A stretch of 64,000 bases of DNA from Thermoplasmata archaeon (GCA_034667745.1 JAXDQP010000062.1:958-64957), one strand, 5' to 3'. Positions 17,077 through 30,128 are shown, counted from the stretch's first letter. Numbers and translations are program-made. The notes: generated from the sequence alone by a model not told the origin.

Positions 17077-17880
17077 TTACACCTTGGTGTTGACCGGGCG
17101 GACGTAGAGGTCCACGATTTGGACCTCATTGTCGGCGGCGTCGACCAGGAAGTCCGCCGTCGGCATGACCTGGGTGCTGAAGCGCCCGAGGACGCCCAGC
17201 TGGCCCGGCTCGAACATGGCGTGCGCGACGTCGGTGCGGGTGTCGTAGCACAGCACGCCGGGGCGGTGCGTCTGGCCCGCGAAGGCGAGGCGCATGGCGA
17301 TGCCGCTCGTGCTGATGGGGAACGCGGCCAGGACGTCGTAGACGCCCTCCAGCAGCGACTCGTCGGGGGTCAGCGCGCGGTTGTTCCAGTCGTTCGCGTT
17401 CATCGCGGCGGCGGCCGTGACGGTGCGAATCCAGAACCCGCCCTTGGGGTCCACGGCCTGCACGGGGCCGTCGCAGAACTGGGTCACGATGAACTGGTCC
17501 GTGGCGGCGGCCGGGTTGTTGACGGTCTCGTAGCCGACGAGCTCGCCGGGGCGCAGGCGGATGGGCTCGCGGCGGAAGTCGTTGACGACCGGCGGGGAGC
17601 CCGGCTCGACGGTGCTGGAGAGCTTGGGGACCTCGATGGCGCTGCGCTTGTAGGTGTCGCGCAGGCTGGGGGCGACGATGCGGCAGCGGGGCTGCACGGT
17701 GGCGTCGATGCCCGCGAACACGAACGCGACGCCGGGCAGTTCGCCGGGGACGCGGTAGAAGTCGCCGCTGCTGTCGCGCTGGAACAGCGGGGACAGGGTC
17801 TCCGCGATGGCGGCGAGCGGCTGGAGCGTGGCGGCGCCGTCCTGGTTCTCGAACCAGGCGACCATGTGCTGCCGCGTCAC
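17077..17880 (-). CDS. island protein, 267 aa, beta-rich (candidate structural/capsid-like protein; speculative)
   Basis: GTG start overlapping stop of upstream 50-aa gene (GTGA); no recognisable motif. Confidence 0.5.
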   Translation of the reverse strand: MTRQHMVAWFENQDGAATLQPLAAIAETLSPLFQRDSSGDFYRVPGELPGVAFVFAGIDATVQPRCRIVAPSLRDTYKRSAIEVPKLSSTVEPGSPPVVNDFRREPIRLRPGELVGYETVNNPAAATDQFIVTQFCDGPVQAVDPKGGFWIRTVTAAAAMNANDWNNRALTPDESLLEGVYDVLAAFPISTSGIAMRLAFAGQTHRPGVLCYDTRTDVAHAMFEPGQLGVLGRFSTQVMPTADFLVDAADNEVQIVDLYVRPVNTKV

Positions 17881-18029
17881 GCGAGCACCTCCAGGGCGGC
17901 GACCACTTCAGCGGGCGCGAGGGGCTGGAGGCGGGTCAGGCCGGGGCGCTTGACGGTGCCGTCCGCGTTGTAGACGAAGCCGGTCTCGGGGTCCCAGGCC
18001 TCGCGGTCCTTGTTGAGGATGACGGGCAT
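17877..18029 (-). CDS. small island protein, 50 aa (MPVILNKDREAWDPETGFVYNADGTVKRPGL...)
   Basis: ATG..TGA ORF found by manual translation, tightly packed between neighbours (3-nt gap upstream, GTGA overlap downstream). Confidence 0.45.
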   Translation of the reverse strand: MPVILNKDREAWDPETGFVYNADGTVKRPGLTRLQPLAPAEVVAALEVLA

Positions 18030-18032
18030 GGT

Positions 18033-18329
18033 TCACCAGATTTTGCGGCCGAACACCTTCGGCGAGCGGATTTTCAGGGCGCTGGCGATGCGCTTCTGGA
18101 GGCCGCGCCCCATCACGGGGATGGCCATCTGGGCGATGTTCCGGGCGGACACGGCCTCCTTGAGGGCGGGCTTGGCGGCGTTCATGGCGCCCTGCATGTC
18201 GCCGTTCATCGCCGCCTGGACGGCAGGGGTGAACGGCTCGACGGCCTGGACGACGATGTTCGTGGCGACGGCGAGGTCGCTCCAGGACTGCTTCGGCTTG
18301 CGGGGCTTGCTGTTCTTGGGCTTGGTCAT
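18033..18329 (-). CDS. small basic island protein, 98 aa (Lys/Arg-rich N-terminus, possible nucleic-acid binding)
   Basis: MTKPKNSKPRKPKQSW..; ATG start. Confidence 0.5.
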   Translation of the reverse strand: MTKPKNSKPRKPKQSWSDLAVATNIVVQAVEPFTPAVQAAMNGDMQGAMNAAKPALKEAVSARNIAQMAIPVMGRGLQKRIASALKIRSPKVFGRKIW

Positions 18330-18351
18330 GTCAGTGGTCTCCTTGGGTGTC

Positions 18352-18457
18352 TTACTTGCCCCACGTGGGGCGGGGGGCGAGGCGGCGCTTGCACTTGTTG
18401 TAGGCGCTCTTCTTGCGGTGCAGCCCGTGGCAGTACGGGCACTTCTTCAGTTGGGCC
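18352..18457 (-). CDS. 35-aa zinc-ribbon peptide MAQLKKCPYCHGLHRKKSAYNKCKRRLAPRPTWGK
   Basis: CPxC...C spacing typical of a zinc ribbon; ORF below track cutoff, found manually. Confidence 0.4.
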
Positions 18458-18460
18458 ATG

Positions 18461-18913
18461 TCAGGCGGGTCTCCAGGTGTTTTCCTTCGTTGCGTCGTTC
18501 ATGTGGGGGACAGTGCGGAGGAACGGTTCGAGGATGGGCTTCCAGCGGGCGCCGGACTCGTAGACGCCTTGCATGGTGTCCGGGCCGAGGAAGGCCTCGA
18601 TGCGCGCCACGTTGTCCGGGCCGAAGCGCTGCGCGATGAGCGTCTTGACCTCGACCTTCGTGGCGAGGGCGGTCAGGCGCTTCTCTTCGGCCTTCTGCCA
18701 GCGCAGGGCGGCGGCGTCCGTGGGGTCCACGCCGCCGCGCATGACGCCGGGCTTCAGCAGCGCATCCAGCCGAGCGCCTAGACGCGTCTCGGCGGCTGCA
18801 ATGTCGCGGTTGACGCGGGGGATGGTGTGCAACGTGGCGATGCAGGTGTCGGTGACGCACTGGGCGAACAGGCCGATGATGAAGGCGCCGATGGTCAGCA
18901 AAACCTGGTCCAT
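18461..18913 (-). CDS. island protein, 150 aa, N-terminal hydrophobic segment (membrane-associated)
   Basis: MDQVLLTIGAFIIGLFAQCV.. hydrophobic N-terminus. Confidence 0.45.
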   Translation of the reverse strand: MDQVLLTIGAFIIGLFAQCVTDTCIATLHTIPRVNRDIAAAETRLGARLDALLKPGVMRGGVDPTDAAALRWQKAEEKRLTALATKVEVKTLIAQRFGPDNVARIEAFLGPDTMQGVYESGARWKPILEPFLRTVPHMNDATKENTWRPA

Positions 18914-19339
18914 GTTTCACAGCAAGGATTGAACAGCATTTAGCTAGCGAGGTTTTCGGCTAAACGAGCGAATACATGTGGCGAGCTTGCGCTAAACAGC
19001 GTCCCAAATGCGTTCCGTGCGTTGACCTTAAGGGGAAACGCCAGCGTTGGGGGGTTTGGGGGGCGTAGGATGGAGCACAGGATTACCTGGGCGCACAGGC
19101 GCACAAGGCGACCGGACAAGGCGGCATCCTCAGCGGCCGGACAAGGGGGAGGTATGGAGGGGGAGCACCCCTTACGGCACGGTGCTCGCTTCGCTCGCGC
19201 CCCGTCATCTTGGGCGCGCTGCTGCGCGCACCCCCGACCGAGAGGAATCCCCCGGACCCCAGCCCGGAATCGACGGCAAGGCCCCTAGGCGCGCGTCCCT
19301 TGGCTCAGAAAAGGGAAGAAGGGGGAAGAGGCGACCGGG

Positions 19340-19549
19340 CTAGGATTCGAGCCAGCGCGCGCCCTGCGGAAGGGGCTCGTTGGCGGGCCACCACCCGGCG
19401 CGGCCGTCCACGCCCGCGGCGTAGCGCACGTGGGTGTGGCTGCCGTCAGGCCAGCTGACGCGCATGGTGCGCGCCCGAGGCGTAGGGCGGGCCGGTCGGA
19501 AGTCTCGGCGGGCGAGTTGGCAGCGGCAGCTAGTCGTCTTCTTGGCCAT
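19340..19549 (-). CDS. possible small Cys-containing protein, 69 aa
   Basis: ATG ORF MAKKTTSCRCQLARRD..; weak support. Confidence 0.25.
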   Translation of the reverse strand: MAKKTTSCRCQLARRDFRPARPTPRARTMRVSWPDGSHTHVRYAAGVDGRAGWWPANEPLPQGARWLES

Positions 19550-19775
19550 CGGGGGCCTCCACTCCAGACCTAGCCGAGCTGGCGGATTTATTCCGTGCCG
19601 ACGTCGCCTTGCCCAGCTGGAGCTCCGCGAGGCGGCCCAGGCGCGAGCTCACCGAGTGATAGCTCCAGGGGCGGTCCTTGAACGCGGGGTGCTTGTAGGC
19701 GTCGAGCTTGCGGATGCGCTCGGCCAGGCTGACCGGGATGCTGATGGTGGTGCGAGGCTCCTTGCTCACCGTCAC
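19530..19775 (-). CDS. ribbon-helix-helix (CopG/Arc-like) DNA-binding protein, ~80 aa
   Basis: GTG start overlapping upstream stop (GTGA); beta-strand TTISIPVSL followed by helices LAERIRKL..; the longer 117-aa ORF is probably an over-extension. Confidence 0.45.
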   Translation of the reverse strand: MTVSKEPRTTISIPVSLAERIRKLDAYKHPAFKDRPWSYHSVSSRLGRLAELQLGKATSARNKSASSARSGVEAPDGQEDD

Positions 19776-19903
19776 ACCACCGTGGGCGCGCGGGGACAGG
19801 TGGCGTGGTAGCAGGCGCTGCACACCACGGGCTTGCTGTCGGGGTCGAGCCAGCCCGGGTGTCCGCCCCGGCAGCCAGGGCACGAGTCGCAGAAGCCGCT
19901 CAC
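19772..19903 (-). CDS. small zinc-finger protein (~43 aa: VSGFCDSCPGC...CSACYHATCP)
   Basis: Two CxxC pairs; GTG start overlapping upstream stop (GTGA). Confidence 0.4.
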   Translation of the reverse strand: MSGFCDSCPGCRGGHPGWLDPDSKPVVCSACYHATCPRAPTVV

Positions 19904-20079
19904 GCGATAGCCCCCCGGCCGATGGCGTCGAGGATGCCGGGCTTGTCGAGGAGCTTCTCGACGCGGTCGAGGAGCCGGACGCAACTGGTGAGGGTTCCTC
20001 GACACTCGACCTCGACCTGTCCGATGCGGACGGAGATGCTGTTCCCGTAGTCCGGGCGGAGCCGGGCGGCGCGGCCCAT
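19900..20079 (-). CDS. small island protein, 59 aa
   Basis: ATG at 20079 immediately after upstream stop (TGACGATG); manual translation MGRAARLRPDYGNSISVRIGQVEVECRG.. Confidence 0.4.
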   Translation of the reverse strand: MGRAARLRPDYGNSISVRIGQVEVECRGTLTSCVRLLDRVEKLLDKPGILDAIGRGAIA

Positions 20080-20081
20080 CG

Positions 20082-20249
20082 TCAGGCCCCCGGCTTGCGC
20101 CAGCTGTTGCCGCCGTGCTGGCGGCAGTCGTTGTAGCTCAGGAGCTCGTAGGTCTCCGAGTTGCGCGACCAGGTGCAGCCGCAGGGCGCGGTGACCTGCT
20201 CCTCCTTGGCGGCCTTGGGGTGGAACGCCTTGCGCAGCAGGCCCTTCAC
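20082..20249 (-). CDS. small Cys-containing island protein, 55 aa
   Basis: GTG start overlapping stop of 20246 gene (GTGA); VKGLLRKAFHPKAAKEEQVTAPCGCTW.. Confidence 0.35.
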   Translation of the reverse strand: MKGLLRKAFHPKAAKEEQVTAPCGCTWSRNSETYELLSYNDCRQHGGNSWRKPGA

Positions 20250-20719
20250 TGCGACGCCCCCGGCACAGGGAGGTCCGAGTCCGAGTCCGTCAGGGGTCGT
20301 GCGACGCTCACGACTGTGAGGTGGAACGTCTTCTTCAGGCCCCGGCCTTCGCTGTGGATATCCAGGACGACGTTGCCGCTCCAGTCGGGGCCGCTGCGCA
20401 CGATGACGTCACGCAGGGAGACGGCCGCCGGGAGGCTCAGGATTTCCCAGACGCTCTCACGGGCGGTGCCTACTTCCAGGAAGGTCGCCACCGCGTACTT
20501 GGTGACGGCCTTCGAGCTCACGATGTTCCCGTTGTCGTCGTGGTTGGCGATGGTGTGCGGGATGCCCTGGGGGCCGTAGCCCTTCACGTCCACCAGGACG
20601 ACGCGCTGGGGCGTGCTCTCCGGCTGGAAGAACGTGGGCTTCGCCTTGTCGGGGAGGTTCAGGCCCGCGAGCCACGCGCCACGGTCAAGGGTCTTCTGTT
20701 CAGGGGTCGTCTCTTGCAT
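20246..20719 (-). CDS. island protein, ~157 aa (ATG at 20719; alternative GTG at 20758 lies inside the direct repeat)
   Basis: MQETTPEQKTLDRGAWLAGLNLP..; unknown function. Confidence 0.5.
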   Translation of the reverse strand: MQETTPEQKTLDRGAWLAGLNLPDKAKPTFFQPESTPQRVVLVDVKGYGPQGIPHTIANHDDNGNIVSSKAVTKYAVATFLEVGTARESVWEILSLPAAVSLRDVIVRSGPDWSGNVVLDIHSEGRGLKKTFHLTVVSVARPLTDSDSDLPVPGASQ

Positions 20720-20744
20720 ACGGTTCGCTCCAAATTGGCTCGAA

Positions 20745-20770
20745 CTCCCGTATGGCACTCGAAGAGAACC
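20745..20770. repeat. direct repeat copy 2 CTCCCGTATGGCACTCGAAGAGAACC
   Basis: 25/26 identity with 14969-14994, same orientation; the sequence to its left does not match the left palindrome half. Confidence 0.8.
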
Positions 20771-20792: not shown

Positions 20793-21176
20793 TCATTTTT
20801 GTGCAGAACTGGCCAAAATCATCAGGATGTCCGCTTCCAACTGGCTCAGCAGCCGGGTGAGGAACAGGTAGACCAAGGTGAGGAGGCCGGTGAGCGCGCC
20901 GGCCACGCGAACGGCGGCGGTGACGACCGGGGTTGCCTGTGAGAGTCCGGGGACGAAGTTGGCCGCCAGGCCGACGACGGTGCCGGCGAAGCCCAGGTAG
21001 AGCAGCACGAGGGCGCCGGTGCGGACGCGGTCCCAGCGGCGCAGGCTTGCGGCGCGCTCGTGCAGGAGGCTGTCGCGGCCGCGGCTGCCCAGCTCGAGGG
21101 CCTGCAGGATGTGCCCATAGCGGCTGTGCAATAGCCACTGGAGGCGGGACTCGTAGGGGTACACGCGGCCGGCAAG
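20793..21176 (-). CDS. small membrane protein (two predicted TM helices); start uncertain (TTG/GTG)
   Basis: C-terminal part GALVLLYLGFAGTVVGLAANFV..VVTAAVRVAGALTGLLTLVYLFL hydrophobic; no internal ATG. Confidence 0.4.
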   Translation of the reverse strand, partial: LAGRVYPYESRLQWLLHSRYGHILQALELGSRGRDSLLHERAASLRRWDRVRTGALVLLYLGFAGTVVGLAANFVPGLSQATPVVTAAVRVAGALTGLLTLVYLFLTRLLSQLEADILMILASSAQK

Positions 21177-21596: not shown

Positions 21597-21863
21597 TCAG
21601 TCGAGCAGCGTGAACAGGACGTCATCCTGCCCCACGTCGAACACGCCCAGCCGCGCGCCCGCGTCGAGCCAGCCGTGCGCGTAGTTGACCTGCGCGAACG
21701 CGTTCACGAAGTCGCCCTGGGCGTGGAAGTGCTGCGCGTCGGCGTAGTAGCGCTTGGCCATGTCGAGGAAGTTGTCGGCGATCTTGGCCGCGAAGGACTT
21801 CGGCGGCGCCACGACCTTGACCTTCTCGAAGGCGCGCCGCGTGGTGTCGAGGTACTTCCCCAT
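21597..21863 (-). CDS. small conserved archaeal protein, 88 aa (DUF357-like guess)
   Basis: MGKYLDTTRRAFEKVKVV..YYADAQHFHAQGDFVNAFAQVNYAHGWLDAGARLG; 29-nt gap after the HerA-like gene, same strand. Confidence 0.5.
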   Translation of the reverse strand: MGKYLDTTRRAFEKVKVVAPPKSFAAKIADNFLDMAKRYYADAQHFHAQGDFVNAFAQVNYAHGWLDAGARLGVFDVGQDDVLFTLLD

Positions 21864-21892
21864 CTTCTCCGCGGAAATCTCCCTCTGCGGGG

Positions 21893-23992
21893 TCAACGCC
21901 ACAGCCGGCGCAAGGTGGAGCGGGTCTTTTGCCGTTCCTGCTGCAGCAGGCGGTGGTAGGTGCAGCCCGCCTGCTCGGGGCAGCGGATGCAGGCCGGTCC
22001 CTCCGGCAGGCAGGCGTTCTCCGCGATCTCCAGCAGCAGCCGCAGGCGGGCGTCGGGGTCGCGGTGGTGTGACGCCTCGAGGTCGCCGACGATGGCGACG
22101 GTGCGCGCGGGGTCCTGGTCTGGCCCCACGAGGCCGATGCGGGAGGCGACGCGGTGGATGTCCTTGGCGTCCCCGGCGGTCCAGCTCTTGCGGACCTTGT
22201 GGGCGAGGAACGCGTCGTCCGGGATGAGGCGGCGCGGGGAGCGGGGCAGCGTCTGGAACTCGACCTCGGGCGCCTGGACCGGGAGGACCGGCTTGGGGCG
22301 CGCGGGCGGCGCGATGGCCGGGGCAGCGGGCGAGGCAGCGGGAGCCGGTGGGACGGGCGCAGGCGGGGGTTGGAACGCGCTGGGCGGCGTCCACACCGGC
22401 GCCACGGGCTTCGGCGGGTCAACACTCGGGGCCGGGTTCAGGGGCGCGCGGGGCGCAGGGGGCGGCAGAACGGGCGCCTGGGGCGCTTCGCCATCGTCCT
22501 CCTCTTCGTCCTCGTCCGACTCCTGGTGCAGCACGGACACGGAGCGGCCGCCGTGGCGCGTCAGGCGGGGGCGCACCGACACGAAGACCGGCTGCGTGAG
22601 GCCGCCACCCGCCACGAGGGCCTCCCCCACGGCGAGGCGCTGGATTTCATCGGCGACCTCCGCCGAGATGCCCTCGACGCTCTGGACGATGGCCTTGAGG
22701 TCATTCGGGTTCGTGACCTTCAGCACGACCTGGGTGTTGCACTGCGACAGCACGTTCTTGTCGATCTTCGCCGGGCGCTGGCTCACGATGACGAGGCCCA
22801 TGCCGAATTTGCGGCCCTCCGAGGCCACGGTGCGGATGATGGCTCCGCTCACGGCGTTGCCCACGTTCCTTTCCGGGCAGAAGTTGTGCGCCTCCTCCAC
22901 CACGAGGATGTGCGCGGGAATCTCGCCGCGCTTGCGCGCCTCCCAGAGCATGTTCGCGATTCGCGTGACGACGATCTCCTGGATGTCGGGGTTGACACCC
23001 TTGAGGTTCACGATGGTGCACTGGCCCGGCGCGACCAGCTCCTTGACGGGGGTGCCGCGGATGTCGAAGACCTTCGTGGACTCCAGGACCTCGAGGGCGT
23101 TGAGGACGTTCCACTTGGCGTTCGATTTGTTGCGCGCGACGCCGTCCATGATGTCGCGCAGCGTGTAGGCGGGGAGATGCTCCTTGATCTCCTTGATGGC
23201 CTGGTAGAGCACGCCCACCTGGCCGCCGGAGAGCTTGCCGCCCAGCAGGTCCACGATGTCGCGGCCCTCCAGGTTCATGCCCTCCAGCACCAGGCGCTGC
23301 GCTTCGGGGTTGAGCTGGACGTCGAGGGCGTACTCCTTGACCTGCTTGGCGAACGACTTGGGCTTCACCTTGTAGCGCGCCATCGCCTCCAGCTCGCCCT
23401 CGTCGAGGTTGGGGCTCCGCAGGGAGCCGTACTCGCCGTGCGGGTCGAGGATGACCAGCGGCACGTTGGCCTTGATGAGCTCCTCCAGGATGACCGCGAC
23501 GGTGTAGGATTTGCCGGCGCCGGTCTTCGCCAGCACCGAGAGGTGCTTCTGCGCCACCGTGTCCATGGAGAGCGCGACGGGAATCTTGCTGCCCTTGACG
23601 AAGCCGAGGTAGGCGCCGCCCTCCGCCGACTGCTCCAGCCCCAGCACGGTCGTGACGAGGCGGTCGTCGGCGTTGTAGACCGGCACCCCGGCGCGGAACG
23701 GCGTGCGCGGCGTCTGGATGCGGCCCTGCTGGTCCTGGTAGCCGATGACGCGCACGCCGGCCGAGAGCTGGTCCTCGGCATCGGCGGCCAGCCCCTCGGG
23801 AATCGCGACGGCCTGCTCGTAGCTCAGGCTGCTGCGCCGCAGGACGGCGTCGACCTGCGCCAGGACGCGGTGGCCCTCGGACTCCACCTCGACGTAGTCC
23901 AGGCGCTTGAGCCCGGAGTCCCCCACGGCGATGTCGAACGCGGTGCTCGACACGTTGCCGTAGATGATGCCGACCTGGCGGCGCAGGGCCAT
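21893..23992 (-). CDS. HerA-like (DUF87/FtsK-HerA superfamily) ATPase with N-terminal HAS-barrel-like region, Pro-rich linker and C-terminal Cys-cluster domain
   Basis: Walker A LAKTGAGKS, Walker B HILVVEEAH; acidic patch DEDEEEDDGE then ~80 aa Pro-rich; C-terminus ..ACLPEGPACIRCPEQAGC.. Confidence 0.8.
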   Translation of the reverse strand: MALRRQVGIIYGNVSSTAFDIAVGDSGLKRLDYVEVESEGHRVLAQVDAVLRRSSLSYEQAVAIPEGLAADAEDQLSAGVRVIGYQDQQGRIQTPRTPFRAGVPVYNADDRLVTTVLGLEQSAEGGAYLGFVKGSKIPVALSMDTVAQKHLSVLAKTGAGKSYTVAVILEELIKANVPLVILDPHGEYGSLRSPNLDEGELEAMARYKVKPKSFAKQVKEYALDVQLNPEAQRLVLEGMNLEGRDIVDLLGGKLSGGQVGVLYQAIKEIKEHLPAYTLRDIMDGVARNKSNAKWNVLNALEVLESTKVFDIRGTPVKELVAPGQCTIVNLKGVNPDIQEIVVTRIANMLWEARKRGEIPAHILVVEEAHNFCPERNVGNAVSGAIIRTVASEGRKFGMGLVIVSQRPAKIDKNVLSQCNTQVVLKVTNPNDLKAIVQSVEGISAEVADEIQRLAVGEALVAGGGLTQPVFVSVRPRLTRHGGRSVSVLHQESDEDEEEDDGEAPQAPVLPPPAPRAPLNPAPSVDPPKPVAPVWTPPSAFQPPPAPVPPAPAASPAAPAIAPPARPKPVLPVQAPEVEFQTLPRSPRRLIPDDAFLAHKVRKSWTAGDAKDIHRVASRIGLVGPDQDPARTVAIVGDLEASHHRDPDARLRLLLEIAENACLPEGPACIRCPEQAGCTYHRLLQQERQKTRSTLRRLWR

Positions 23993-24058
23993 CAGGAGAC
24001 CACTCCTGGAGGTCCTATATCAGGCCGCCCAAATGGACCTAGGAGGGCCGCCGGGAAC

Positions 24059-24145
24059 GGAGGCCTGGGATTCCAGCGATTTCAGAGTTTAGGAAACCTG
24101 GGCCAAGTCTTCGCAATCCCAAATCACCGCAACCCTCCGGCCTCC
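24059..24145. repeat. MITE-like palindromic element, type A (copy A3, degenerate right arm)
   Basis: Left arm GGAGGCCTGGGATTCCAGCGATT is the exact reverse complement of the A2 right arm; right arm only partially conserved (..CCGGCCTCC). Confidence 0.6.
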
Positions 24146-24171
24146 CCGCACGCGGGAGGAAAAACCTCGCG

Positions 24172-24420
24172 TTAGGCGAGCGTCTCGAGCTGGGACATGA
24201 TGTTCCAGACGAGGGTGCGGCCGTGCAGGGGGATGTTGGGGTCGTTGGCCATGTCGTCCAGGGTGCCGATGGCCTTGGCCTTGCGGACGTCGAGGGGCTC
24301 GCCCTGGTTGGTGAGGAGGGCCTTGATCTGCTCCGCGGCGCGGCGGATGTTGCGGGGGACGCTGGTGTCCTCGACGAGCATGTCCAAGCCGGTCGTGATG
24401 TTCTGGATGCGCGACGCCAT
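24172..24420 (-). CDS. small conserved archaeal protein, 82 aa (UPF0147-like guess)
   Basis: MASRIQNITTGLDMLVEDTSVPRNIRRAAEQIKALL..; located 56 nt downstream of hef. Confidence 0.45.
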   Translation of the reverse strand: MASRIQNITTGLDMLVEDTSVPRNIRRAAEQIKALLTNQGEPLDVRKAKAIGTLDDMANDPNIPLHGRTLVWNIMSQLETLA

Positions 24421-24476
24421 GAAAACGACCCCAGGAGCGGATGCCCCTTGACGGGTCGCGCGACGGAAGGGGCCTC

Positions 24477-26786
24477 TTAAGCCGTTTCGGTGTGCCGACC
24501 CGTTGCCGCGCGCACGCGGCGGCCCTCCAGCTCCAGGATGCGGCGCATCTCGCTGGCCTTCGCGCCGCCGATGCCCTCGACCTCGGCGAGCTCGGCGACG
24601 GTGGCGGCGAAGACGCGGTGGGCGCTGCCGAAGTGGTCGAGCAGGCGCTGCGCCAGCACCTCGCTGACGCCCGGCAGCCCCGCGACCAGGAAGATGCGCA
24701 GGTCGTCGTCGCTCGCGGGCTTGCCGGGACGGACCGCGATCTTGCGCCCCTCGCGCTCCTGCTCGCGCTTGGCGGCGGCGTGCAGGAAGCGCGCGGTCTC
24801 GAGGCCGTCGCGGGTCTGGAGGACGGGGATGCCGTAGTCCACGCTGACGGAGGCGAGGGCGCCCAGGATGGCCTCCGGGCTGAGGTTGCGGTGGCCGTGC
24901 AGCGACTCGCCCTCCAGGATGAGGAATGGGCGCGGGTAGGCCTTGAGCTGCCGCAGCTGCTCGAAGAGGCGGCCGTCGACGAGGGACTCCACGAAGTCGG
25001 CGCAGGTCTTGCGCTCGACGGCGACGCGGTCGCTCAGGATGAAGTCCGCGACGTCCAGTTGCCGCGCCTCCAGGGCGCACCCAAGCTCGTGCAGGTGGCG
25101 GACGACCGCGCCGGACTGCTCGCGGTGGTCGAACAGCACCTTGGGGCCGGGCGGCATGGAGGCGGATGCGGGGGGGGCGTGCTGCTGGCCGAGTGTCGTC
25201 TGGCCGGTGGGGCGGGCGGGCAGCGGCGGCAGGGGCGCGATGGGGACGCGGGCGATGGTGCCCCGCAGGGAGTGCAGTTCGCGCACCATCTCCTGCTCCT
25301 TGCGGCGGGCGGACCAGTGCGCGGCCTCGTCCTGCGTGCCCTTCGTCATCAGCACGACGACGCGGCCCTCGCGCTGGCGCCCGGTGCGGCCGCGGCGCTG
25401 GATGGCCCGGATTTCGCTCGGGATGGGCTCGAAGAAGACCACGAGGTCCGTCTCGGGGATGTCGAGCCCCTCCTCCGCGACGCTGGTGGCCACCAGGACG
25501 TTGTGCCCGCCGGCGCGGAAGCGGTCGAGGGTCTCCTTCTGCTCCTTCTGGGTCATGCCGTCCTGGCCGCCGCGCTTGCCCTGCCCGACGAACAGGACGG
25601 GCTTGACGCCAGGGAGCTTGGAGAGCGCGTCCACGACGGCCTCGCAGGTGGAGCGGTAGTGCGTGAAGACGATGCAGCGCGCGGTGGGCGCCGCCTCGAT
25701 GTACTCCTTGACGAGGACGCCGGTGCGCGCCAGCTTGGGGTTCTCCGAGGTGTCGAAGCGCGCGATGTGGTACGCCTCGTTGACGCGCGGGTCCTCCGCG
25801 ATGGAGCGGCTGGCCTTCGTCGCCTTGGGGCCTTGCGCCTCGCCGCGCATCCCCTCGACGTACTCGATGAACGCGGCCGAGCCCTGCGTCTCGACCTGCT
25901 CGATGGCGTGCTGGAGCTTGAGCGCCTGCGCCTGGAGACTCATGGCTTGGAACAGGGAGGGGTCCGGGTTCGGCAACTGGCTCAGCTTGCCCTGGAGGAT
26001 GCCGGCCAACTCCAGCAGCTCGCGGCGGTTGGGCTTGCTGCCGATGGTCTTGAGGACGCCGAGCCCCTTCAGCGTCCGCACGCGCTCGGCGAGGGCCTCG
26101 TGCAGCTTGCCGCTGACCCGCGCCATCGCGGGCGGCAGGGGCAGCGTCTCCCACTCCATCTGCACCGTCTGGACGTAGGGGGCGACGTCGGCGTCGGCGG
26201 GGGTGCGGATCTCGACGAAGGGAAGCCCGAGGTTCTGGCGCACCTCGTCGATCTTGCGCACGTCGTGGCCGGGGCTCGCGGTGAGGCCGAGGCGGCGGCC
26301 CTTGGGGTGCCGGCGCTGCAGCTCCTGGCCGATGAAGGCATACGGATAGTCGCCGACAGCGCGGTGGGCCTCGTCGAACACCACCCAGTCGAGCGCGGCG
26401 AGGTCGAGGCGGCCGCCCACGAGGTCGTTCTGCACGACCTGGGGCGTGGCGCACACGAGCCCCTCGTCCCTGTAGGCCGCGGCGCGCCTGTCGGGTGACT
26501 GGGTGCCGGTGAGGCCGTGCACGCGGCCGGCCCACGGCTCGGCCAGGACGGAGGCGAAGAACCGTTGGTGCTGCTCGACCAGGGGCCGCGTCGGGGCAAG
26601 CAGGAGCACGCGCTTGGCGCCGGCCTGGAGCGCGTCGGCGATGGCCAGCAGCGCGACGATGGTCTTGCCCATCCCCGTCGGCAGCACGACGAGCGTGTCG
26701 CCTTTCTGCGCGATGCGGGCCAGGTTCGCCTGGTAGCCGCGGAACTCCACCGTCTCCGCCTTAAGGAGGGGGTGGACCACATGCAC
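24477..26786 (-). CDS. hef: Hef helicase/nuclease (SF2 helicase + XPF/ERCC4 nuclease + HhH2)
   Basis: 769 aa; helicase motifs PTGMGKT, DEAH-like VFDEAHR, C-terminal ERCC4 nuclease block VAVERKTCADFV and HhH region. Confidence 0.9.
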   Translation of the reverse strand: MHVVHPLLKAETVEFRGYQANLARIAQKGDTLVVLPTGMGKTIVALLAIADALQAGAKRVLLLAPTRPLVEQHQRFFASVLAEPWAGRVHGLTGTQSPDRRAAAYRDEGLVCATPQVVQNDLVGGRLDLAALDWVVFDEAHRAVGDYPYAFIGQELQRRHPKGRRLGLTASPGHDVRKIDEVRQNLGLPFVEIRTPADADVAPYVQTVQMEWETLPLPPAMARVSGKLHEALAERVRTLKGLGVLKTIGSKPNRRELLELAGILQGKLSQLPNPDPSLFQAMSLQAQALKLQHAIEQVETQGSAAFIEYVEGMRGEAQGPKATKASRSIAEDPRVNEAYHIARFDTSENPKLARTGVLVKEYIEAAPTARCIVFTHYRSTCEAVVDALSKLPGVKPVLFVGQGKRGGQDGMTQKEQKETLDRFRAGGHNVLVATSVAEEGLDIPETDLVVFFEPIPSEIRAIQRRGRTGRQREGRVVVLMTKGTQDEAAHWSARRKEQEMVRELHSLRGTIARVPIAPLPPLPARPTGQTTLGQQHAPPASASMPPGPKVLFDHREQSGAVVRHLHELGCALEARQLDVADFILSDRVAVERKTCADFVESLVDGRLFEQLRQLKAYPRPFLILEGESLHGHRNLSPEAILGALASVSVDYGIPVLQTRDGLETARFLHAAAKREQEREGRKIAVRPGKPASDDDLRIFLVAGLPGVSEVLAQRLLDHFGSAHRVFAATVAELAEVEGIGGAKASEMRRILELEGRRVRAATGRHTETA

Positions 26787-26858
26787 GGCCGTTCCAAGAC
26801 CGGCGCCGGGATGAAGGATTCGCCTCGGGGAGAAAATGCGGCGAAACCATTCCTGGGC

Positions 26859-27854
26859 TCAGGGCTGGAGGCGGTCCAGGTTCGCCGGGTCCGGCCGCAG
26901 CCTCCCCTCCTCGATGCGGTGCACCAGCTCGACAAGCGCCTCGTTGACCGGCGCCTCCAGGCCGTGCTCCCGCGCGGTGGCGACGATGTGGCCGTTCAGG
27001 AACTCCACCTCGGTCCTCTGGCCGCGCTCCAGGCTCTGCAGGCTGCTCGACTTGTGCCGCCCCTGCCGCCGCCCGATGGCGCGCAGCATCAGGTGGCGGC
27101 CGGGGAGGGGCGTGGCGAACATCCAGGGCCGGAACCCCGCGACGGGCTCGAACCTGACGCCCGCCGCGTGGCCCGCGCGGTGGCCCTCCTCCACGATGGC
27201 GAGGAAGGCGGCGCGGGCGCGGCGGTCCTCCAGCAGCCTCGCCAGCTGCTCGCCGGCGGCCACGCCCAGGGTCGAGATGCAGCTGTTGATGAGCAGCTTG
27301 CTCCACTTGACGCCCAGCATGTTCGCGCTGACCGACACGGGCGCCGCGGGGGCCAGCAAGGTTGCCGCCGAGCGCACGGCCTGGCTTGGCGCGCCGCGCG
27401 GCCAGGGTCCCAGGATGAGGTGGCCCGCGCCGGTCTGGGCGCTCATGCCTGGGCCCAGCAGGGTCGCGGGGAGGCTGACGGTGCACTCCACGTGTCGCGC
27501 GCCGGCGATGGCGGCAAGCTTGTCGCCAAGCACGCCGTTTTGGAGTGTGACGACGGGCGCGTCGGGCCGCACCGCCGCCAGCCAGTGCCGCAGCGCGGGC
27601 GCGGCGTCGGCGCACTTGGTGGCCAGCACCAGCGCGCGGGCCTGGGCCCGGACGTCGCCGGGGTGGGCCACCGTGGGGACCGTGGCGCGCAGGACGGCGC
27701 CGCGCTCGTCCGTCGCCTCCAGCCCCGAGGCGGCGAGGTGGGCGGCGGCCTCCTCGGTGCGGCAGGCGAGCAGGGTGGGGGTGCCCGCTGCGTGCAGGCG
27801 CGCCGCCACGAGGACGCCGAGCGCGCCGGGGCCGACGACGAGCACGGGGTCCAC
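26859..27854 (-). CDS. 2-dehydropantoate 2-reductase family (ApbA/PanE-like) oxidoreductase
   Basis: 331 aa; N-terminal Rossmann VLVVGPGALG, family-typical length. Confidence 0.65.
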   Translation of the reverse strand: MDPVLVVGPGALGVLVAARLHAAGTPTLLACRTEEAAAHLAASGLEATDERGAVLRATVPTVAHPGDVRAQARALVLATKCADAAPALRHWLAAVRPDAPVVTLQNGVLGDKLAAIAGARHVECTVSLPATLLGPGMSAQTGAGHLILGPWPRGAPSQAVRSAATLLAPAAPVSVSANMLGVKWSKLLINSCISTLGVAAGEQLARLLEDRRARAAFLAIVEEGHRAGHAAGVRFEPVAGFRPWMFATPLPGRHLMLRAIGRRQGRHKSSSLQSLERGQRTEVEFLNGHIVATAREHGLEAPVNEALVELVHRIEEGRLRPDPANLDRLQP

Positions 27855-28013
27855 GCCGCCGCAGCCCGCGCGCGGGGGAAAAGGGCGCCGACCCGCGTCG
27901 ACCCCCCCTTGATTTCACTTCGAACGGTCAAGTAGGGGAGGCCAGTCCGACGGTCGTTGACGGTCGTTTCACCCCTCCCGGGCCAAGGATTCTCCCCCCA
28001 GGACGGCATCTAG

Positions 28014-30128
28014 ATGCAGCCGATGGCCCCCGTCCAGCTCACCGTCCAGGACGCCCAGCTCGCGGCGAAGTGGGACTCGTTCCTGCAGGACTACACGAAG
28101 TCCCAGATCCAGCAGGCGGCGCTCGACTTCCCGGAGACCCGCAGCGTCACGGTCGCCTTCAACGACATCCAGCTGCGCGACCCCGACCTCGCCAACTACC
28201 TCCTGCACAAGCCCACCCAGTCCCTCCGCCTCGGCGCCCAGGTCCTGCACCAAGTGGACGTCACCGTGGACCCGCGGCCCAAGCTGCACCTGCGCATCAA
28301 CGGCCTGCCGGACTCGCAGCGCATCATCCCGCGCAACCTGCGGGCCGAGCACCTGGGGAAGTTCCTCGCCGTCGAGGGGCTCGTCAAGAAGGTCACCGAG
28401 GTGCGCCCCACCGTGCAGGAGGCGGTCTTCGAGTGCAAGGTGTGCACCACCCAGGTCCGCATCCTCCAGGACGACGAATTCCTCCAGGAGCCGGTCCTCT
28501 GCGAGACCTGTGACGCGCAGCGGCCGTGGCGCTTCGTCGAGGAGGACAGCCGCTACCTGGACCACCAAAAAGTCGAGATCCAGGAGGCGCCCGAGGGATT
28601 GCGCGGCGGCAGCCAGCCCGAGCGCCTCACCATCCACCTCACCGACGATTTGGTGCACAAGGTCGCGCCCGGCGACCGCATCCGCATCAACGGCATCCTC
28701 ACGACGCAGGCGCGCCGCCAGGGCAGCCAGAAGCGCGTCGAGTTCAACAAGATCCTGAACGGCGTCAGCATCGAGGTGCAGCAGCAGGAGTTTAGCGAGG
28801 TGCAGTACACCGCCGAGGAGGAGGACGAAATCTGCACCCTCGGCGAGGACCCGCGCATCTACGACCGCCTGCGCGCCAGCTTCGCCCCGACCATCTACGG
28901 CCTCGACGTGGAGAAGGACGCGCTCATCCTGAGCCTGTTCGGCGGCGTCGAGAAGACCTACAAGGACGGCAGCCGCAGCCGTGGCGACATCCACGTCCTC
29001 CTGGTCGGCGACCCCGGTGTCGCCAAGTCGCAGCTCCTTCGCTACCTCTCCAAGCTCGCCCCGCGCGCCATCTTCACGAGCGGCAAGGGCGCGAGCGCGG
29101 CCGGCCTCACCGCCGCCGCCGTGAAGGACGAGTTCGGCGAGGGCCAGTGGACCCTGGAGGCCGGCGCGCTCGTTCTGGCCGACAAGGGCATCGCCTGCAT
29201 CGACGAACTGGACAAGATGGACAAGAACGACCAGTCTTCGATGCACCAGGCGATGGAGCAGCAGGAAATCTCCATCGCGAAGGCCGGCATCTCGGCCACC
29301 CTGAAGTCGCGCTGCGCGGTCATCGGCGCCGCGAACCCCAAGCTGGGCCGCTTCGACGAGTTCACCCCCATCCACGAGCAGATCAACATGCCGCCGGCCC
29401 TCCTGAGCCGCTTCGACCTCATCTTCAGCCTGCTCGACAAGCCCGGCCGCGACAAGGACAGCCAGCTCGCGGGGCATCTCCTGAAGACCCACCAGGCGGG
29501 CGAGGTGCGCGAGCACCGCATGGCCCACCCCGGCGGCGCCTACACGATGGAGGACGAGGAGCGGCTGATGCAGCGCGTCAAGCCGGACCTCAGCGCGGAG
29601 CTGCTGCGCAAGTACGTCGCCTACGCCAAGCGCAACGTCTTCCCCGTCCTCTCGGAGGAGGCGCTCGAGACCATCAAGCAGTACTACGTCAACCTCCGCA
29701 ACAGCGGCGACGGCAGCATCCCCTTCACCGCCCGCCAGCTCGAGGCGTTCGTGCGCCTCGCCGAGGCAAGCGCCCGCATCCGCCTCAGCCAGGAGGCCGG
29801 CCTGGAGGATGCCCAGCGCGCCATCCGCATCGTCGAGTCCTACCTGCGCAGCGTCGGCGTGGACCGCGAGACCGGCAAGTTCGACATCGACGTCATCGCC
29901 ACCGGCGTCAGCCACAGCCAGCACGACCGCATGCGCATCCTCCTGGACGTCGTGCGGACCCTGGCCAAGAACGACAAGGGCTACGCGGCGGAGGACGACA
30001 TCGTGCGCGAGGCGAGCAAGCAGGGCATCGCGCCCGACCTGGCCCGCAAGAGCCTGGAGACGATGCACCGCAACGGCACCATCTTCGCGAAGGGCGGCGC
30101 CGGCAAGTACGCTCCCCTCAGCAACTGA
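28014..30128 (+). CDS. mcm: minichromosome maintenance (MCM) replicative helicase
   Basis: 704 aa; Walker A DPGVAKSQ, Walker B CIDELDKM, arginine finger SRFDL, zinc motif C..C..C..C in the N-terminal domain. Confidence 0.95.
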   Translation: MQPMAPVQLTVQDAQLAAKWDSFLQDYTKSQIQQAALDFPETRSVTVAFNDIQLRDPDLANYLLHKPTQSLRLGAQVLHQVDVTVDPRPKLHLRINGLPDSQRIIPRNLRAEHLGKFLAVEGLVKKVTEVRPTVQEAVFECKVCTTQVRILQDDEFLQEPVLCETCDAQRPWRFVEEDSRYLDHQKVEIQEAPEGLRGGSQPERLTIHLTDDLVHKVAPGDRIRINGILTTQARRQGSQKRVEFNKILNGVSIEVQQQEFSEVQYTAEEEDEICTLGEDPRIYDRLRASFAPTIYGLDVEKDALILSLFGGVEKTYKDGSRSRGDIHVLLVGDPGVAKSQLLRYLSKLAPRAIFTSGKGASAAGLTAAAVKDEFGEGQWTLEAGALVLADKGIACIDELDKMDKNDQSSMHQAMEQQEISIAKAGISATLKSRCAVIGAANPKLGRFDEFTPIHEQINMPPALLSRFDLIFSLLDKPGRDKDSQLAGHLLKTHQAGEVREHRMAHPGGAYTMEDEERLMQRVKPDLSAELLRKYVAYAKRNVFPVLSEEALETIKQYYVNLRNSGDGSIPFTARQLEAFVRLAEASARIRLSQEAGLEDAQRAIRIVESYLRSVGVDRETGKFDIDVIATGVSHSQHDRMRILLDVVRTLAKNDKGYAAEDDIVREASKQGIAPDLARKSLETMHRNGTIFAKGGAGKYAPLSN

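What the first reader, a model, noticed from the sequence alone, without database searches (positions are those of the whole stretch)
21597..23992. Stand-alone HerA-like ATPase with Pro-rich linker and C-terminal Cys-cluster domain, paired with an 88-aa conserved protein, at the island border
Canonical archaeal HerA sits with NurA, Mre11 and Rad50; none is present here. This 699-aa protein has the HAS-barrel plus the FtsK/HerA ATPase core (Walker A KTGAGKS, Walker B VVEEAH). It then continues with an acidic patch, an ~80-aa proline-rich linker (PVLPPPAPRAPLNPAPSVDPPKPVAP..) and a ~130-aa domain ending ACLPEGPACIRCPEQAGC. A small gene follows 29 nt downstream. It is flanked by a MITE upstream and the island downstream. 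HerA-family ATPases paired with small effectors occur in several anti-phage systems (for example Sir2-HerA). They also occur as DNA-translocating motors of conjugation or uptake systems (CedB-like) and as packaging ATPases. This two-gene module could be a novel defence or DNA-translocation system, or the island's motor protein.
Basis: partly seen in the sequence, partly recalled or inferred. Interest (0 to 1): 0.65.

Follow-up and report, generated by a model that had tools for sequence, protein, structure and literature searches.

The report
HerA-like ATPase with iron–sulfur tail
This is a chromosomal, vertically inherited DNA-pumping ATPase of the HerA family that is conserved across Thermoplasmatota archaea and carries an unreported tail domain borrowed from the iron–sulfur part of the DNA-repair enzyme endonuclease III; it is not a defence system or part of the neighbouring mobile island.

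Summary
ORF 21893-23992(-) encodes a 699-aa HerA-type ATPase: HAS-barrel, intact Walker A and B, a 117-aa disordered Pro-rich linker and a folded ~100-aa Cys domain. An 88-aa gene lies 29 nt downstream.

The defence and island-motor readings do not hold. The Cys domain is homologous to the [4Fe-4S] cluster domain of endonuclease III/MutY (profile E=2.5e-10). It has the exact Cx6Cx2Cx5C ligand spacing but no HhH-GPD motif and no conserved residue at the catalytic Asp position.

The protein family occurs in at least 567 Thermoplasmatota genomes. None of the fetched loci shows NurA/Mre11/Rad50 nearby, and the context is always housekeeping. In the window's clade that is MCM, Hef, UPF0147; in low-GC clades it is Dph5, transglutaminase-like, S12-S7-EF2-MCM.

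The small gene is DUF357, one of the 76 archaeal single-copy marker genes. It follows HerA only in the high-GC clades.

The island is a 5.8-kb insertion bounded by 26-nt repeats. It ends 827 nt beyond DUF357, past another conserved gene. No relatives were found in viral contigs.

Best reading: a housekeeping hexameric dsDNA translocase with tethered Fe-S modules. This is a new variant of a known kind. The cellular process it serves is unknown.

The parts
21893..23992 (-). HerA-like ATPase gene ('HerA-FeS'), 699 aa
   Evidence: ORF and codon bias. Pfam DUF87 4e-35. PDB S. solfataricus HerA 4d2i E=1.9e-38, colinear over aa 87-472. More than 3599 homologues.
23735..23974 (-). HAS-barrel, aa 7-86
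   Evidence: Pfam PF09378, weak. Beta-strands at aa 6-107 in the AF2 model. Foldseek TMt 0.81 to 4d2i.
22550..23608 (-). RecA-like ATPase core with helical insertion, aa 129-481; ends in the invariant RxRxTxHGG motif
23507..23530 (-). Walker A, AKTGAGKS (aa 155-162)
   Evidence: Invariant in alignment A1. KTGxGKS present in 199 of 201 relatives.
22886..22903 (-). Walker B, VVEEAH (aa 364-369)
   Evidence: E366, E367 and H369 invariant. hEEAHN present in 200 of 201 relatives.
22199..22549 (-). Acidic patch plus Pro-rich disordered linker, aa 482-598
   Evidence: AF2 pLDDT below 50. 33 Pro in 117 aa. Linker length is 29-184 aa across 179 relatives and the sequence is not conserved.
21896..22198 (-). 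C-terminal domain homologous to the EndoIII/MutY [4Fe-4S] cluster domain, plus a basic tail, aa 599-699
   Evidence: Profile against PDB: Endonuclease III 9nzc E=2.5e-10, aligned to its residues 139-201. AF2 pLDDT 93. All top Foldseek hits are MutY/EndoIII, probability 1.0.
21962..22012 (-). Cx6Cx2Cx5C motif (C661, C668, C671, C677): the presumed [4Fe-4S] ligands
   Evidence: Invariant in 20 of 20 sequences. Present in 111 of the 120 best homologues.
21597..21863 (-). DUF357 gene, 88 aa. An alternative TTG start at 21894-21896 overlaps the HerA stop codon and would give 99 aa.
   Evidence: Pfam PF04010 6e-28. PDB 2oo2 and 2pmr. Relatives are mostly called at about 95-115 aa. Sequence read directly.
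24015..24020 (-). TATA-like ATATAG, ~25 nt upstream of the HerA ATG; a possible own promoter giving a leaderless mRNA
   Evidence: Read by eye. This is inference only; no archaeal promoter tool was available.
24059..24150 (.). MITE-like repeat with terminal inverted repeats, in the UPF0147-HerA intergenic region
24172..24420 (-). UPF0147 gene; an upstream neighbour conserved in the window's clade
   Evidence: Pfam PF03685 4e-31. Synteny.
24477..26786 (-). Hef (SF2 helicase + ERCC4 nuclease + HhH); an upstream neighbour conserved in the window's clade
   Evidence: Synteny.
20793..21164 (-). Conserved small membrane-protein gene lying between DUF357 and the island
   Evidence: ORF cluster 24, present in 12 related loci. 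Nucleotide homology to L001 resumes at 20820.

Best explanation
The gene encodes the Thermoplasmatota-wide chromosomal member of the HerA family.

Shown:
- A complete HerA fold (HAS-barrel plus RecA-like ATPase) with intact catalytic motifs. It is closest in sequence and structure to the two NurA-partnered archaeal HerAs.
- A variable, disordered, acidic and Pro-rich tether.
- A C-terminal module homologous to the [4Fe-4S] cluster domain of endonuclease III/MutY. It keeps the four Cys ligands but lacks the HhH-GPD motif, and the catalytic Asp position is not conserved.
- A conserved housekeeping genomic context and vertical inheritance.

Inferred:
- It assembles as a hexameric ring that pumps double-stranded DNA using ATP, as HerA does.
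- The six Fe-S modules hang on flexible tethers. They serve as DNA-binding (or partner-binding or redox-sensing) appendages that recruit or regulate the motor on chromosomal DNA during break or stalled-fork processing.
- HerA and DUF357 are probably co-transcribed here (gap of at most 29 nt) from a promoter of their own.

The DUF357 pairing is an operon arrangement kept in the high-GC clades. It is not an obligatory two-component system, and it is neither an immune system nor a mobile-element function.
For: ATPase:
- Pfam DUF87 4e-35.
- 4d2i E=1.9e-38, colinear.
- Foldseek best hits are S. solfataricus HerA (E=1.8e-35, TMt 0.81) and the T. kodakarensis HerA of the HerA-NurA complex (2.3e-35). 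That is about 8 orders of magnitude better than Sir2-HerA or DUF4297-HerA.
- NCBIfam's best matches are the two DSB-repair HerA models, full-length.
- Catalytic motifs are invariant.

Fe-S domain:
- Profile against PDB finds EndoIII at 2.5e-10 and MutY/MUTYH at ~1e-7, aligned from the 'DTHVHRIANRLGW' helix to the Cys loop.
- AF2 pLDDT 93. Foldseek top 38 hits are all MutY/EndoIII/thymine glycosylase.
- A search of 1.84 billion representatives finds the domain mainly at the C-termini of HerA-like proteins, then in ordinary EndoIII.

Housekeeping and vertical inheritance:
- At least 567 relatives in species-representative genomes. The 80 fetched are Thermoplasmatota MAGs by identity and synteny, though a few record titles name other taxa.
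- Tree clades match GC content and synteny.
- Window clade order: MCM, Hef, UPF0147, HerA, DUF357, TM protein, resolvase, LipB.
- Low-GC clade order: Dph5, HerA, Transglut_core, then S12, S7, EF2, MCM.
- MCM lies within 10 kb in both clades.

Not mobile and not defence.

Against: - No biochemical data exist for any family member.
- Cluster binding, hexamer formation and DNA translocation are inferred from homology only.
- The loop between the first two Cys is acidic or hydrophobic in this family (CLPEGPAC, CHEEEPAC), not basic as in EndoIII/MutY. A DNA-contact role for the loop is therefore uncertain.
- A sister clade (L075, L078, L079) replaces the Fe-S domain with a coiled coil. The Fe-S module is thus not indispensable to the motor.
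- In low-GC clades the gene overlaps a secreted transglutaminase-like gene by 4 nt. A repair role does not explain that.
- I could not establish whether the same genomes also encode a canonical HerA-NurA, so the cellular process remains open.
Confidence: 0.65

Rival explanations
1. It is simply the orthologue of canonical HerA. It works with a NurA nuclease (and Mre11-Rad50) encoded elsewhere in the genome to resect DNA double-strand breaks, and the Fe-S tail is a lineage-specific accessory. This is a sub-case of the best explanation, not an exclusive alternative.
For: - The closest sequences and structures are the NurA-partnered HerAs of S. solfataricus and T. kodakarensis.
- The alignment to NCBIfam HerA_Thermprot is full-length and colinear: aa 19-483 against profile positions 14-471 of 487.
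- No second HerA-like gene lies within ±10 kb of any locus.
Against: - Scores are far below the equivalog cut-offs: 164 against 800 bits and 157 against 970 bits.
- No recurrent neighbour within ±5 kb of the 80 loci resembles NurA, Mre11 or Rad50, and none appears within ±10 kb of the four Pfam-annotated loci L081-L084.
- By contrast, a review's figure on the genomic localization of these four genes includes T. acidophilum and T. volcanium among its representative species (PMC8708640, Fig. 9 legend). That suggests a separate canonical HerA in cultured members of the phylum, which would make this family a paralogue.
Confidence: 0.3
2. It is a chromosome-segregation or division DNA pump, an archaeal functional analogue of FtsK. 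The motor would be joined by a long Pro-rich linker to a small C-terminal module that anchors or orients it.
For: - The architecture resembles FtsK in outline: motor, long low-complexity Pro-rich linker, small terminal domain.
- The extreme C-terminus is a conserved, strongly basic tail with a hydrophobic doublet (RRLW or GLF[KR], median net charge +6). It is retained even in the clade that lost the Fe-S domain.
- Neighbours include membrane or secreted proteins: the small TM protein, and the transglutaminase-like gene overlapping by 4 nt.
- The gene is loosely linked to MCM in both clades.
- That HerA might be the archaeal counterpart of FtsK is an old proposal I recall from the literature. 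I could not retrieve a paper to cite for it.
Against: - No transmembrane segment is present.
- A hydrophobic-moment test of the last 11 residues was not significant: median muH 0.48, and only 18% of tails at p<0.1. A membrane-targeting helix is therefore not supported.
- Linkage to division genes was not examined, and none appears among the recurrent neighbours.
Confidence: 0.1
3. It is a two-gene anti-virus defence module (HerA plus a small effector), analogous to Sir2-HerA or DUF4297-HerA.
For: - Generic HerA models of PADLOC and NCBIfam's anti-phage HerA models match the ATPase (PDLC04105 9e-48; NF042943 1.3e-30).
- A small gene follows within 29 nt.
- A mobile island lies ~0.8 kb away.
Against: - The anti-phage HerA scores are far below cut-off (106 against 800 bits) and cover mostly the C-terminal half.
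- The partner is DUF357, one of the 76 archaeal single-copy marker genes, with no PADLOC hit and no enzymatic domain.
- The locus is syntenic and housekeeping in 80 of 80 loci.
- DUF357 is absent next to HerA in ~50 low-GC loci.
- Structurally the protein is nearer to repair HerAs.
Confidence: 0.03
4. It is the motor (packaging, conjugation or DNA-uptake ATPase) of the adjacent integrated element or of a Ced-like transfer system.
For: - It belongs to the FtsK-HerA superfamily.
- It gives weak NCBIfam matches to CedD (6e-26) and CedB (3e-4).
- An island lies nearby.
Against: - The island is delimited by 26-nt direct repeats at 14969-14994 and 20745-20770 and is missing from L001, which still has HerA, DUF357 and the TM gene.
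- CedD scores 91 bits against a 600-bit cut-off.
- No relatives in IMG/VR. Only 2 weak phage hits. Plasmid hits are 32% identity or less and lack the tail.
- No membrane partner is conserved across clades.
Confidence: 0.02

Closest known systems
Canonical archaeal HerA (S. solfataricus, PDB 4d2i; T. kodakarensis HerA-NurA, PDB 9x1l/9x1m)
   Same: - HAS-barrel plus RecA-like ATPase with a helical insertion.
- Walker A, Walker B and the EGRKFG/SQRP motifs are conserved.
- The alignment is colinear over aa 87-472.
- These are the best sequence and fold matches.
   Different: - Identity is only ~20-24% in the structural alignments.
- It fails NCBIfam's equivalog cut-offs.
- It is not clustered with nurA/mre11/rad50 in any locus examined.
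- It has an extra ~220 aa: a disordered Pro-rich linker plus an Fe-S domain and a basic tail.
Endonuclease III / MutY (HhH-GPD glycosylases with an iron-sulfur cluster loop)
   Same: The C-terminal ~75 aa are homologous to the EndoIII [4Fe-4S] cluster domain, covering residues 139-201 of a 209-aa EndoIII. They include the 'HRVANRLGW' helix and the Cx6Cx2Cx5C ligands with the conserved Pro residues.
   Different: - There is no six-helix barrel, no HhH-GPD motif and no catalytic Lys.
- The position of the catalytic Asp is not conserved.
- The Cys1-Cys2 loop is acidic rather than basic.
- It therefore cannot be a glycosylase. It is one 'jaw' of the EndoIII DNA cleft, re-used as an appendage.
Anti-phage HerA systems (Sir2-HerA, DUF4297-HerA)
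   Same: HerA-family ATPase followed closely by a second gene.
   Different: - The fold match is about 8 orders of magnitude weaker than to repair HerAs.
- There is no effector domain; the neighbour is a core archaeal gene.
- The locus is vertically inherited and housekeeping.
FtsK (bacterial DNA translocase) — functional analogy only
   Same: Same superfamily. A motor joined by a long Pro-rich low-complexity linker to a small terminal domain.
   Different: - Different clade of the superfamily.
- No membrane domain.
- The domain order is reversed.
- The terminal domain is an Fe-S module, not a winged-helix gamma domain.

Membership tests
HerA family (FtsK-HerA superfamily, DUF87/PF01935) | HAS-barrel + RecA-like P-loop ATPase with intact Walker A/B | tested here: met
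   Pfam PF01935 122 bits against a 23.2-bit cut-off. 4d2i E=1.9e-38. Foldseek TMt 0.81. Motifs invariant.
Canonical DSB-repair HerA (NCBIfam NF040937 / NF040819 equivalogs) | Score above the curated equivalog cut-off | tested here: not met
   164 bits against 800, and 157 bits against 970.
Canonical DSB-repair HerA | Genomic linkage with nurA, mre11 and rad50 | tested here: not met
   None among the window ORFs scanned. No recurrent neighbour of that kind within ±5 kb in 80 loci. None in the Pfam-labelled ±10 kb of L081-L084.
Canonical DSB-repair HerA | Physical and functional partnership with a NurA encoded anywhere in the genome | not testable with these tools
Canonical DSB-repair HerA | Hexameric ring with ATP-driven dsDNA translocation | not testable with these tools
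   Only a monomer model was made. Needs biochemistry or cryo-EM.
Anti-phage HerA systems (Sir2-HerA, DUF4297-HerA; NF042943/NF042944; PADLOC) | Adjacent effector gene (Sir2, DUF4297 nuclease or similar) | tested here: not met
   The neighbour is DUF357, with no PADLOC hit. Other neighbours are Hef, UPF0147, Dph5 and a transglutaminase-like protein.
Anti-phage HerA systems | Score above the equivalog cut-off; patchy, island-associated distribution | tested here: not met
   106 against 800 bits and 97 against 850 bits. Synteny is conserved in 80 of 80 loci. No IMG/VR relatives.
Ced DNA-import ATPases (CedB/CedD) | Equivalog score; membrane partners | tested here: not met
   CedD 91 bits against 600; CedB 19 bits against 700. 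No membrane partner is conserved across clades.
Endonuclease III / MutY HhH-GPD glycosylases (C-terminal domain only) | Cx6Cx2Cx5C [4Fe-4S] cluster loop | tested here: met
   C661, C668, C671 and C677 are invariant. Present in 111 of 120 homologues. Aligned to the EndoIII Cys loop.
Endonuclease III / MutY HhH-GPD glycosylases | HhH-GPD motif and catalytic Lys/Asp | tested here: not met
   The match starts at EndoIII residue 139, after the HhH-GPD. No Pfam HhH-GPD hit on the C-terminal 235 aa even at E up to 10. The column aligned to the catalytic Asp is not conserved.
Endonuclease III / MutY HhH-GPD glycosylases | Actual binding of a [4Fe-4S] cluster | not testable with these tools
   Needs UV-vis or EPR spectroscopy of purified protein.
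DUF357 (PF04010) for the 88-aa protein | Pfam gathering score | tested here: met
   97.2 bits against a 29.4-bit cut-off, covering profile positions 1-73 of 73. PDB 2oo2 and 2pmr matched.

The most novel reading that the evidence does not exclude
HerA-FeS is a phylum-wide chromosome-maintenance motor. Its tethered endonuclease-III-derived [4Fe-4S] modules would sense DNA state (damage, ends or redox via the cluster) and load or regulate a hexameric dsDNA pump that works without NurA. Its operon partner in the high-GC clades, the universal but uncharacterised archaeal protein DUF357, would be a functional cofactor. That would give DUF357 its first functional context.
Probability: 0.12. Interest if true: 0.7.

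Novelty: new variant of a known kind. Interest (0 to 1): 0.4.

Why it matters
Fe-S clusters in DNA-processing enzymes (XPD, primase, Dna2, AddAB, EndoIII/MutY) are an active research topic. I found no report of a HerA-type ring translocase carrying an EndoIII-derived cluster domain.

The family is conserved across a large, mostly uncultured archaeal phylum, and it is not linked to NurA in any locus examined. It may therefore represent a different way of using a HerA motor in chromosome maintenance.

The finding also has a practical lesson. A stand-alone HerA next to a small gene and near an island is not necessarily a defence system.

The recurrent HerA-DUF357 operon is one of the few contextual clues available for DUF357, one of the 76 archaeal single-copy marker genes, whose function is unknown.

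Tried and rejected
1. **Pfam on the C-terminal 235 and 145 aa at E up to 10:** no hit. Homology to EndoIII appeared only with a family profile against PDB.
2. **Membrane-targeting amphipathic helix at the extreme C-terminus:** the hydrophobic-moment test against shuffles was not significant. I rejected this as unsupported. A PIP-box-like reading fits only the RRLW clade, by eye, so I did not pursue it.
3. **PADLOC for DUF357, UPF0147 and the small TM protein:** nothing.
4. **PHROGs for eight island ORFs:** nothing meaningful.
5. **IMG/VR scan for relatives:** none. Phage and plasmid tblastn gave only distant ATPase-only hits.
6. **Literature:** searches for HerA + Thermoplasmatota, HerA + endonuclease III + 4Fe-4S, and NurA in Thermoplasmatota orders found nothing on this family. 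Three id look-ups for two classic HerA papers failed because the papers are not held.
7. **Profile search of the 5.8-billion-protein set with the Fe-S domain:** returned only short gene fragments from short contigs, so it said nothing about taxonomy.
8. **Homologue search with DUF357:** showed only stand-alone ~100-aa proteins and no informative fusions.
9. **My first DUF357 adjacency table, based on BLAST clusters, was contaminated by overlapping-frame ORFs in high-GC DNA.** I used the jackhmmer result instead.
10. **Co-occurrence with a canonical HerA-NurA in the same genomes:** could not be determined.
Full report
**1. The observation**

The window is ~70% G+C. The ORF at 21893-23992 on the minus strand (699 aa) has strong coding bias: GC3 is 0.95 and GC2 is 0.44. 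Pfam finds the HerA central domain (DUF87, E=4e-35), HerA_C (2.5e-7) and a sub-threshold HAS-barrel. The motifs KTGxGKS and hEEAHN occur in 199 and 200 of 201 relatives.

An AlphaFold2 model built on 20 homologues folds aa 1-481 and aa 599-694 confidently and leaves aa 482-598 disordered. That stretch starts with an acidic patch and has 33 Pro in 117 residues.

The small gene at 21597-21863(-) lies 29 nt downstream and is a DUF357 protein (Pfam E=6e-28). An in-frame TTG that overlaps the HerA stop codon would give 99 aa, within the range of about 95-115 aa at which relatives are mostly called.

**2. The Cys-cluster domain**

The four cysteines C661, C668, C671 and C677 are invariant in a 20-sequence alignment that spans 45-87% identity. 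The linker between motor and domain is unalignable and varies from 29 to 184 aa. Of the 120 best homologues, 111 carry Cx5-7Cx2Cx5C. The other nine are 436-737 aa long, mostly clearly shorter than full length, and several are annotated as partial.

The spacing Cx6Cx2Cx5C is that of the iron-sulfur cluster loop of endonuclease III and MutY. I first recognised this from memory and then tested it. Pfam alone saw nothing, even at E up to 10. A profile of 26 C-terminal domains searched against all PDB sequences found Endonuclease III at E=2.5e-10, and MutY, MUTYH, NTHL1 and ROS1 at 1e-7 to 1e-5. The alignment runs from EndoIII residue 139 (the 'DTHVHRIANRLGW' helix, matching 'IHRVA.RLG') to the Cys loop at residue 201.

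The isolated domain models at pLDDT 93. Its top 38 Foldseek hits in the PDB are all MutY, EndoIII or the related thymine glycosylase, with probability about 1.0 at the top of the list and TM-score 0.5-0.6 over 70-90 columns.

The match begins after the HhH-GPD motif. The catalytic Lys is therefore absent, and the column aligned to the catalytic Asp is not conserved. The domain is the Fe-S 'jaw' of EndoIII without the glycosylase.

An exhaustive HMMER search of 1.84 billion representatives gave 40 hits at E up to 1e-10. Of the 13 top hits I retrieved, most are C-termini of HerA-like proteins, many of them fragments from short contigs. One (P0145) is a different, small P-loop ATPase carrying the same domain. 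The remaining ~210-230-aa hits, matched at about positions 140-215, have the length and match position of ordinary EndoIII.

**3. Which HerA it resembles**

By sequence, the best solved relatives are S. solfataricus HerA (4d2i, E=1.9e-38, colinear over aa 87-472) and a 592-aa 'DNA helicase' (9x1l, E=1.4e-37). Foldseek identifies the latter as the T. kodakarensis HerA of a HerA-NurA complex. These two lead the fold search (E about 2e-35; TMt 0.81 for 4d2i). Sir2-HerA, DUF4297-HerA and Deinococcus HerA follow at 1e-27 to 1e-23.

NCBIfam's best matches are the two DSB-repair HerA equivalogs, with full-length alignment. The scores (164 and 157 bits) are far below the cut-offs (800 and 970). The anti-phage HerA, CedD and CedB models score lower still.

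It is thus a bona fide HerA-family motor, nearest to the repair HerAs. It is not a member of the curated canonical, defence or Ced groups.

**4. Distribution and context**

The protein database search returned more than 3599 hits. The top 120 are 600-770-aa proteins, and those that carry a source name are almost all from Thermoplasmatota or Thermoplasmata MAGs. I fetched 80 loci with flanks of up to 10 kb where the contig allowed.

A neighbour-joining tree of the ATPase region splits the 80 loci into clades that match G+C content and gene order.

- **Window clade (L001-L018, GC 0.58-0.71).** The order is MCM, a 2-dehydropantoate-reductase-like gene, Hef, UPF0147, HerA, DUF357, a ~130-aa membrane protein, a serine recombinase, then LipB.
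- **Large low-GC clade (about 50 loci, GC 0.28-0.55).** The order is diphthine synthase (TP_methylase) at about -60 nt, HerA, then a secreted transglutaminase-like gene that overlaps the HerA stop by 4 nt in L081. Further downstream come S12, S7, EF-2 and MCM.

MCM lies within 10 kb in at least 20 loci across both clades. No recurrent neighbour resembles NurA, Mre11 or Rad50. None appears in the Pfam-labelled ±10 kb of L081-L084 or among the window ORFs I scanned.

[quoted passage not shown] 9 legend). Only the legend was available to me, so the arrangement in those two genomes was not seen. This suggests that the present family is a paralogue rather than the canonical orthologue. I could not scan whole genomes to settle the point.

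**5. The 88-aa partner**

An iterated HMM search of all ORFs within ±5 kb found DUF357 near HerA as follows.

| Group of loci | DUF357 immediately downstream of HerA |
|---|---|
| Window clade | 12 of 14 testable loci |
| L029 | yes |
| L033 | 3.2 kb away |
| L067 and the sister clade (L075, L078, L079) | yes, in all four |
| Low-GC clade | none of about 50 |

In L085, a further high-GC lineage, the DUF357 start overlaps the HerA stop by 4 nt.

The pairing is therefore conserved across HerA divergence down to about 45-50% identity. It is probably an operon in those lineages, but it is not universal.

DUF357 is also one of the 76 archaeal common (single-copy) genes of the Anvi'o set (PMC12680538). 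Structural-genomics structures exist from Archaeoglobus and one further uncharacterised entry (2oo2 and 2pmr). From the Pfam family as I recall it (not tested here), DUF357 is therefore far more widespread among archaea than this HerA family. It has no PADLOC hit. These facts speak against a dedicated effector or partner of a defence-type HerA.

**6. The island and the MITE**

Nucleotide comparison with L001 (83% protein identity) shows colinearity on both sides of a gap. Window positions 14991 and 20820 correspond to L001 positions 64 nt apart. The inserted segment is bounded by 26-nt direct repeats, CTCCCGTATGGCACTCG[G/A]AGAGAACC, at 14969-14994 and 20745-20770. The empty site in L001 carries one diverged copy.

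The island therefore ends 827 nt from the DUF357 stop, with the conserved membrane-protein gene in between. HerA and DUF357 are not part of it. The island's ORFs have no PHROG matches.

The MITE-like element in the 179-nt UPF0147-HerA spacer is real. Downstream of it, about 25 nt before the HerA ATG, lies a TATA-like ATATAG. I read this by eye as a possible own promoter for a leaderless HerA-DUF357 transcript. This is inference only.

**7. Tests of the mobile and defence readings**

- No relative was found in 2.9 million IMG/VR contigs.
- There were two weak phage hits.
- Plasmid hits were 32% identity or less, restricted to the ATPase, and mostly on haloarchaeal megaplasmids.
- PADLOC gave only generic HerA matches.

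Together with the synteny, these results disfavour defence, packaging, conjugation and island-motor roles.

**8. Mechanism**

*Shown:* a complete, catalytically intact HerA fold; a variable disordered tether; an EndoIII-type cluster domain with all four ligands; a strongly basic C-terminal tail (median net charge +6, ending RRLW, GLF[KR] or RWG); and housekeeping, vertical inheritance.

*Inferred from the established behaviour of HerA (hexameric dsDNA translocase) and of the EndoIII/MutY cluster domain (DNA-backbone contact and a DNA-dependent redox-active cluster):* a hexameric DNA pump with six tethered Fe-S modules that bind DNA or a partner and recruit or regulate the motor during chromosome repair or fork processing.

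*Caveats:*
- The Cys1-Cys2 loop is acidic here.
- A sister clade swaps the Fe-S domain for a coiled coil while keeping the tether, the basic tail and DUF357.
- The overlap with a secreted transglutaminase-like gene in low-GC clades is unexplained.
- An FtsK-like segregation role is possible. The membrane-anchor idea for the tail failed a hydrophobic-moment test.

**9. Verdict**

It is not a defence system or the island's motor. It is a new variant of a known kind: a conserved HerA-family translocase with an EndoIII-derived Fe-S tail. As far as the searchable literature shows, this has not been described.

Interest is moderate (0.4). It is a clean, testable domain innovation in an uncultured phylum, and it offers a contextual clue for DUF357. 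The cellular process and the relation to NurA remain open.

Noticed in passing
window 14969-20770: A 5776-nt integrated element bounded by 26-nt direct repeats (14969-14994 and 20745-20770, 25 of 26 identical). It is absent from the closest relative L001, whose empty site has one diverged copy. All its ORFs are on the minus strand and have no PHROG matches.
   Followed up: yes
window 14080-14928 (+): A serine recombinase gene (Resolvase + Recombinase domains, 282 aa) lies about 40 nt from the island's left repeat. It is itself conserved in synteny (62-81% identity) in relatives that lack the island. It may be a resident or domesticated recombinase beside a recurrent integration site.
   Followed up: partly
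window 1083-1281, 8625-8702, 24059-24150: A MITE-like element with terminal inverted repeats GGAGGCCNGGGATT. Five copies of the 23-nt end motif occur against 0 expected by chance. One copy sits in the HerA upstream spacer.
   Followed up: partly
L075, L078, L079 (HerA homologue, C-terminal ~150 aa): A sister clade of the HerA family has a predicted coiled-coil C-terminal domain instead of the Fe-S domain. It keeps the acidic and Pro-rich linker, a basic C-terminal tail (…GLLARLRRR) and DUF357 immediately downstream.
   Followed up: partly
L086:1720-2649 (protein P0145): A 309-aa protein from a low-GC metagenome contig joins a small, unrelated-looking P-loop ATPase to the same EndoIII-derived Fe-S domain. 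This is a second ATPase-plus-Fe-S-tail architecture.
   Followed up: no
L081:9155-12924 and ~50 low-GC loci: In low-GC Thermoplasmatota, HerA-FeS sits between diphthine synthase and a secreted transglutaminase-like gene that overlaps its stop codon by 4 nt in L081. The block lies a few kb from S12-S7-EF2-MCM. The link between a DNA motor and an extracellular transglutaminase-like protein is unexplained.
   Followed up: partly
window 21896-21961 (aa 678-699) and homologues: The extreme C-terminus after the fourth Cys is a conserved, strongly basic tail (median net charge +6) ending in clade-specific hydrophobic motifs (RRLW, GLF[KR], RWG). An amphipathic membrane-helix test was not significant. 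Its function is unknown.
   Followed up: partly
window 24172-34176: A dense run of genome-maintenance genes around the finding: UPF0147, Hef (24477-26786), MCM (28014-30128), NMD3 (30369-31679) and an XPD/Rad3-type Fe-S helicase (32194-34176). Endonuclease IV lies at 49789-50652.
   Followed up: partly
window ~35900-41300: A lower-GC stretch (0.61-0.65) lies between tRNA-Gln (35628-35700) and tRNA-Val (41315-41388). It encodes secreted or membrane proteins and a membrane protein with a C-terminal wHTH-like region. It may be a second acquired region.
   Followed up: no
L003, L004, L019, L029, L075 (record titles): Several MAGs carrying this Thermoplasmatota-type locus are titled 'uncultured Halobacteriales archaeon' or 'Proteobacteria bacterium' in their records. 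These are probably taxonomic mislabels or mis-binning.
   Followed up: no
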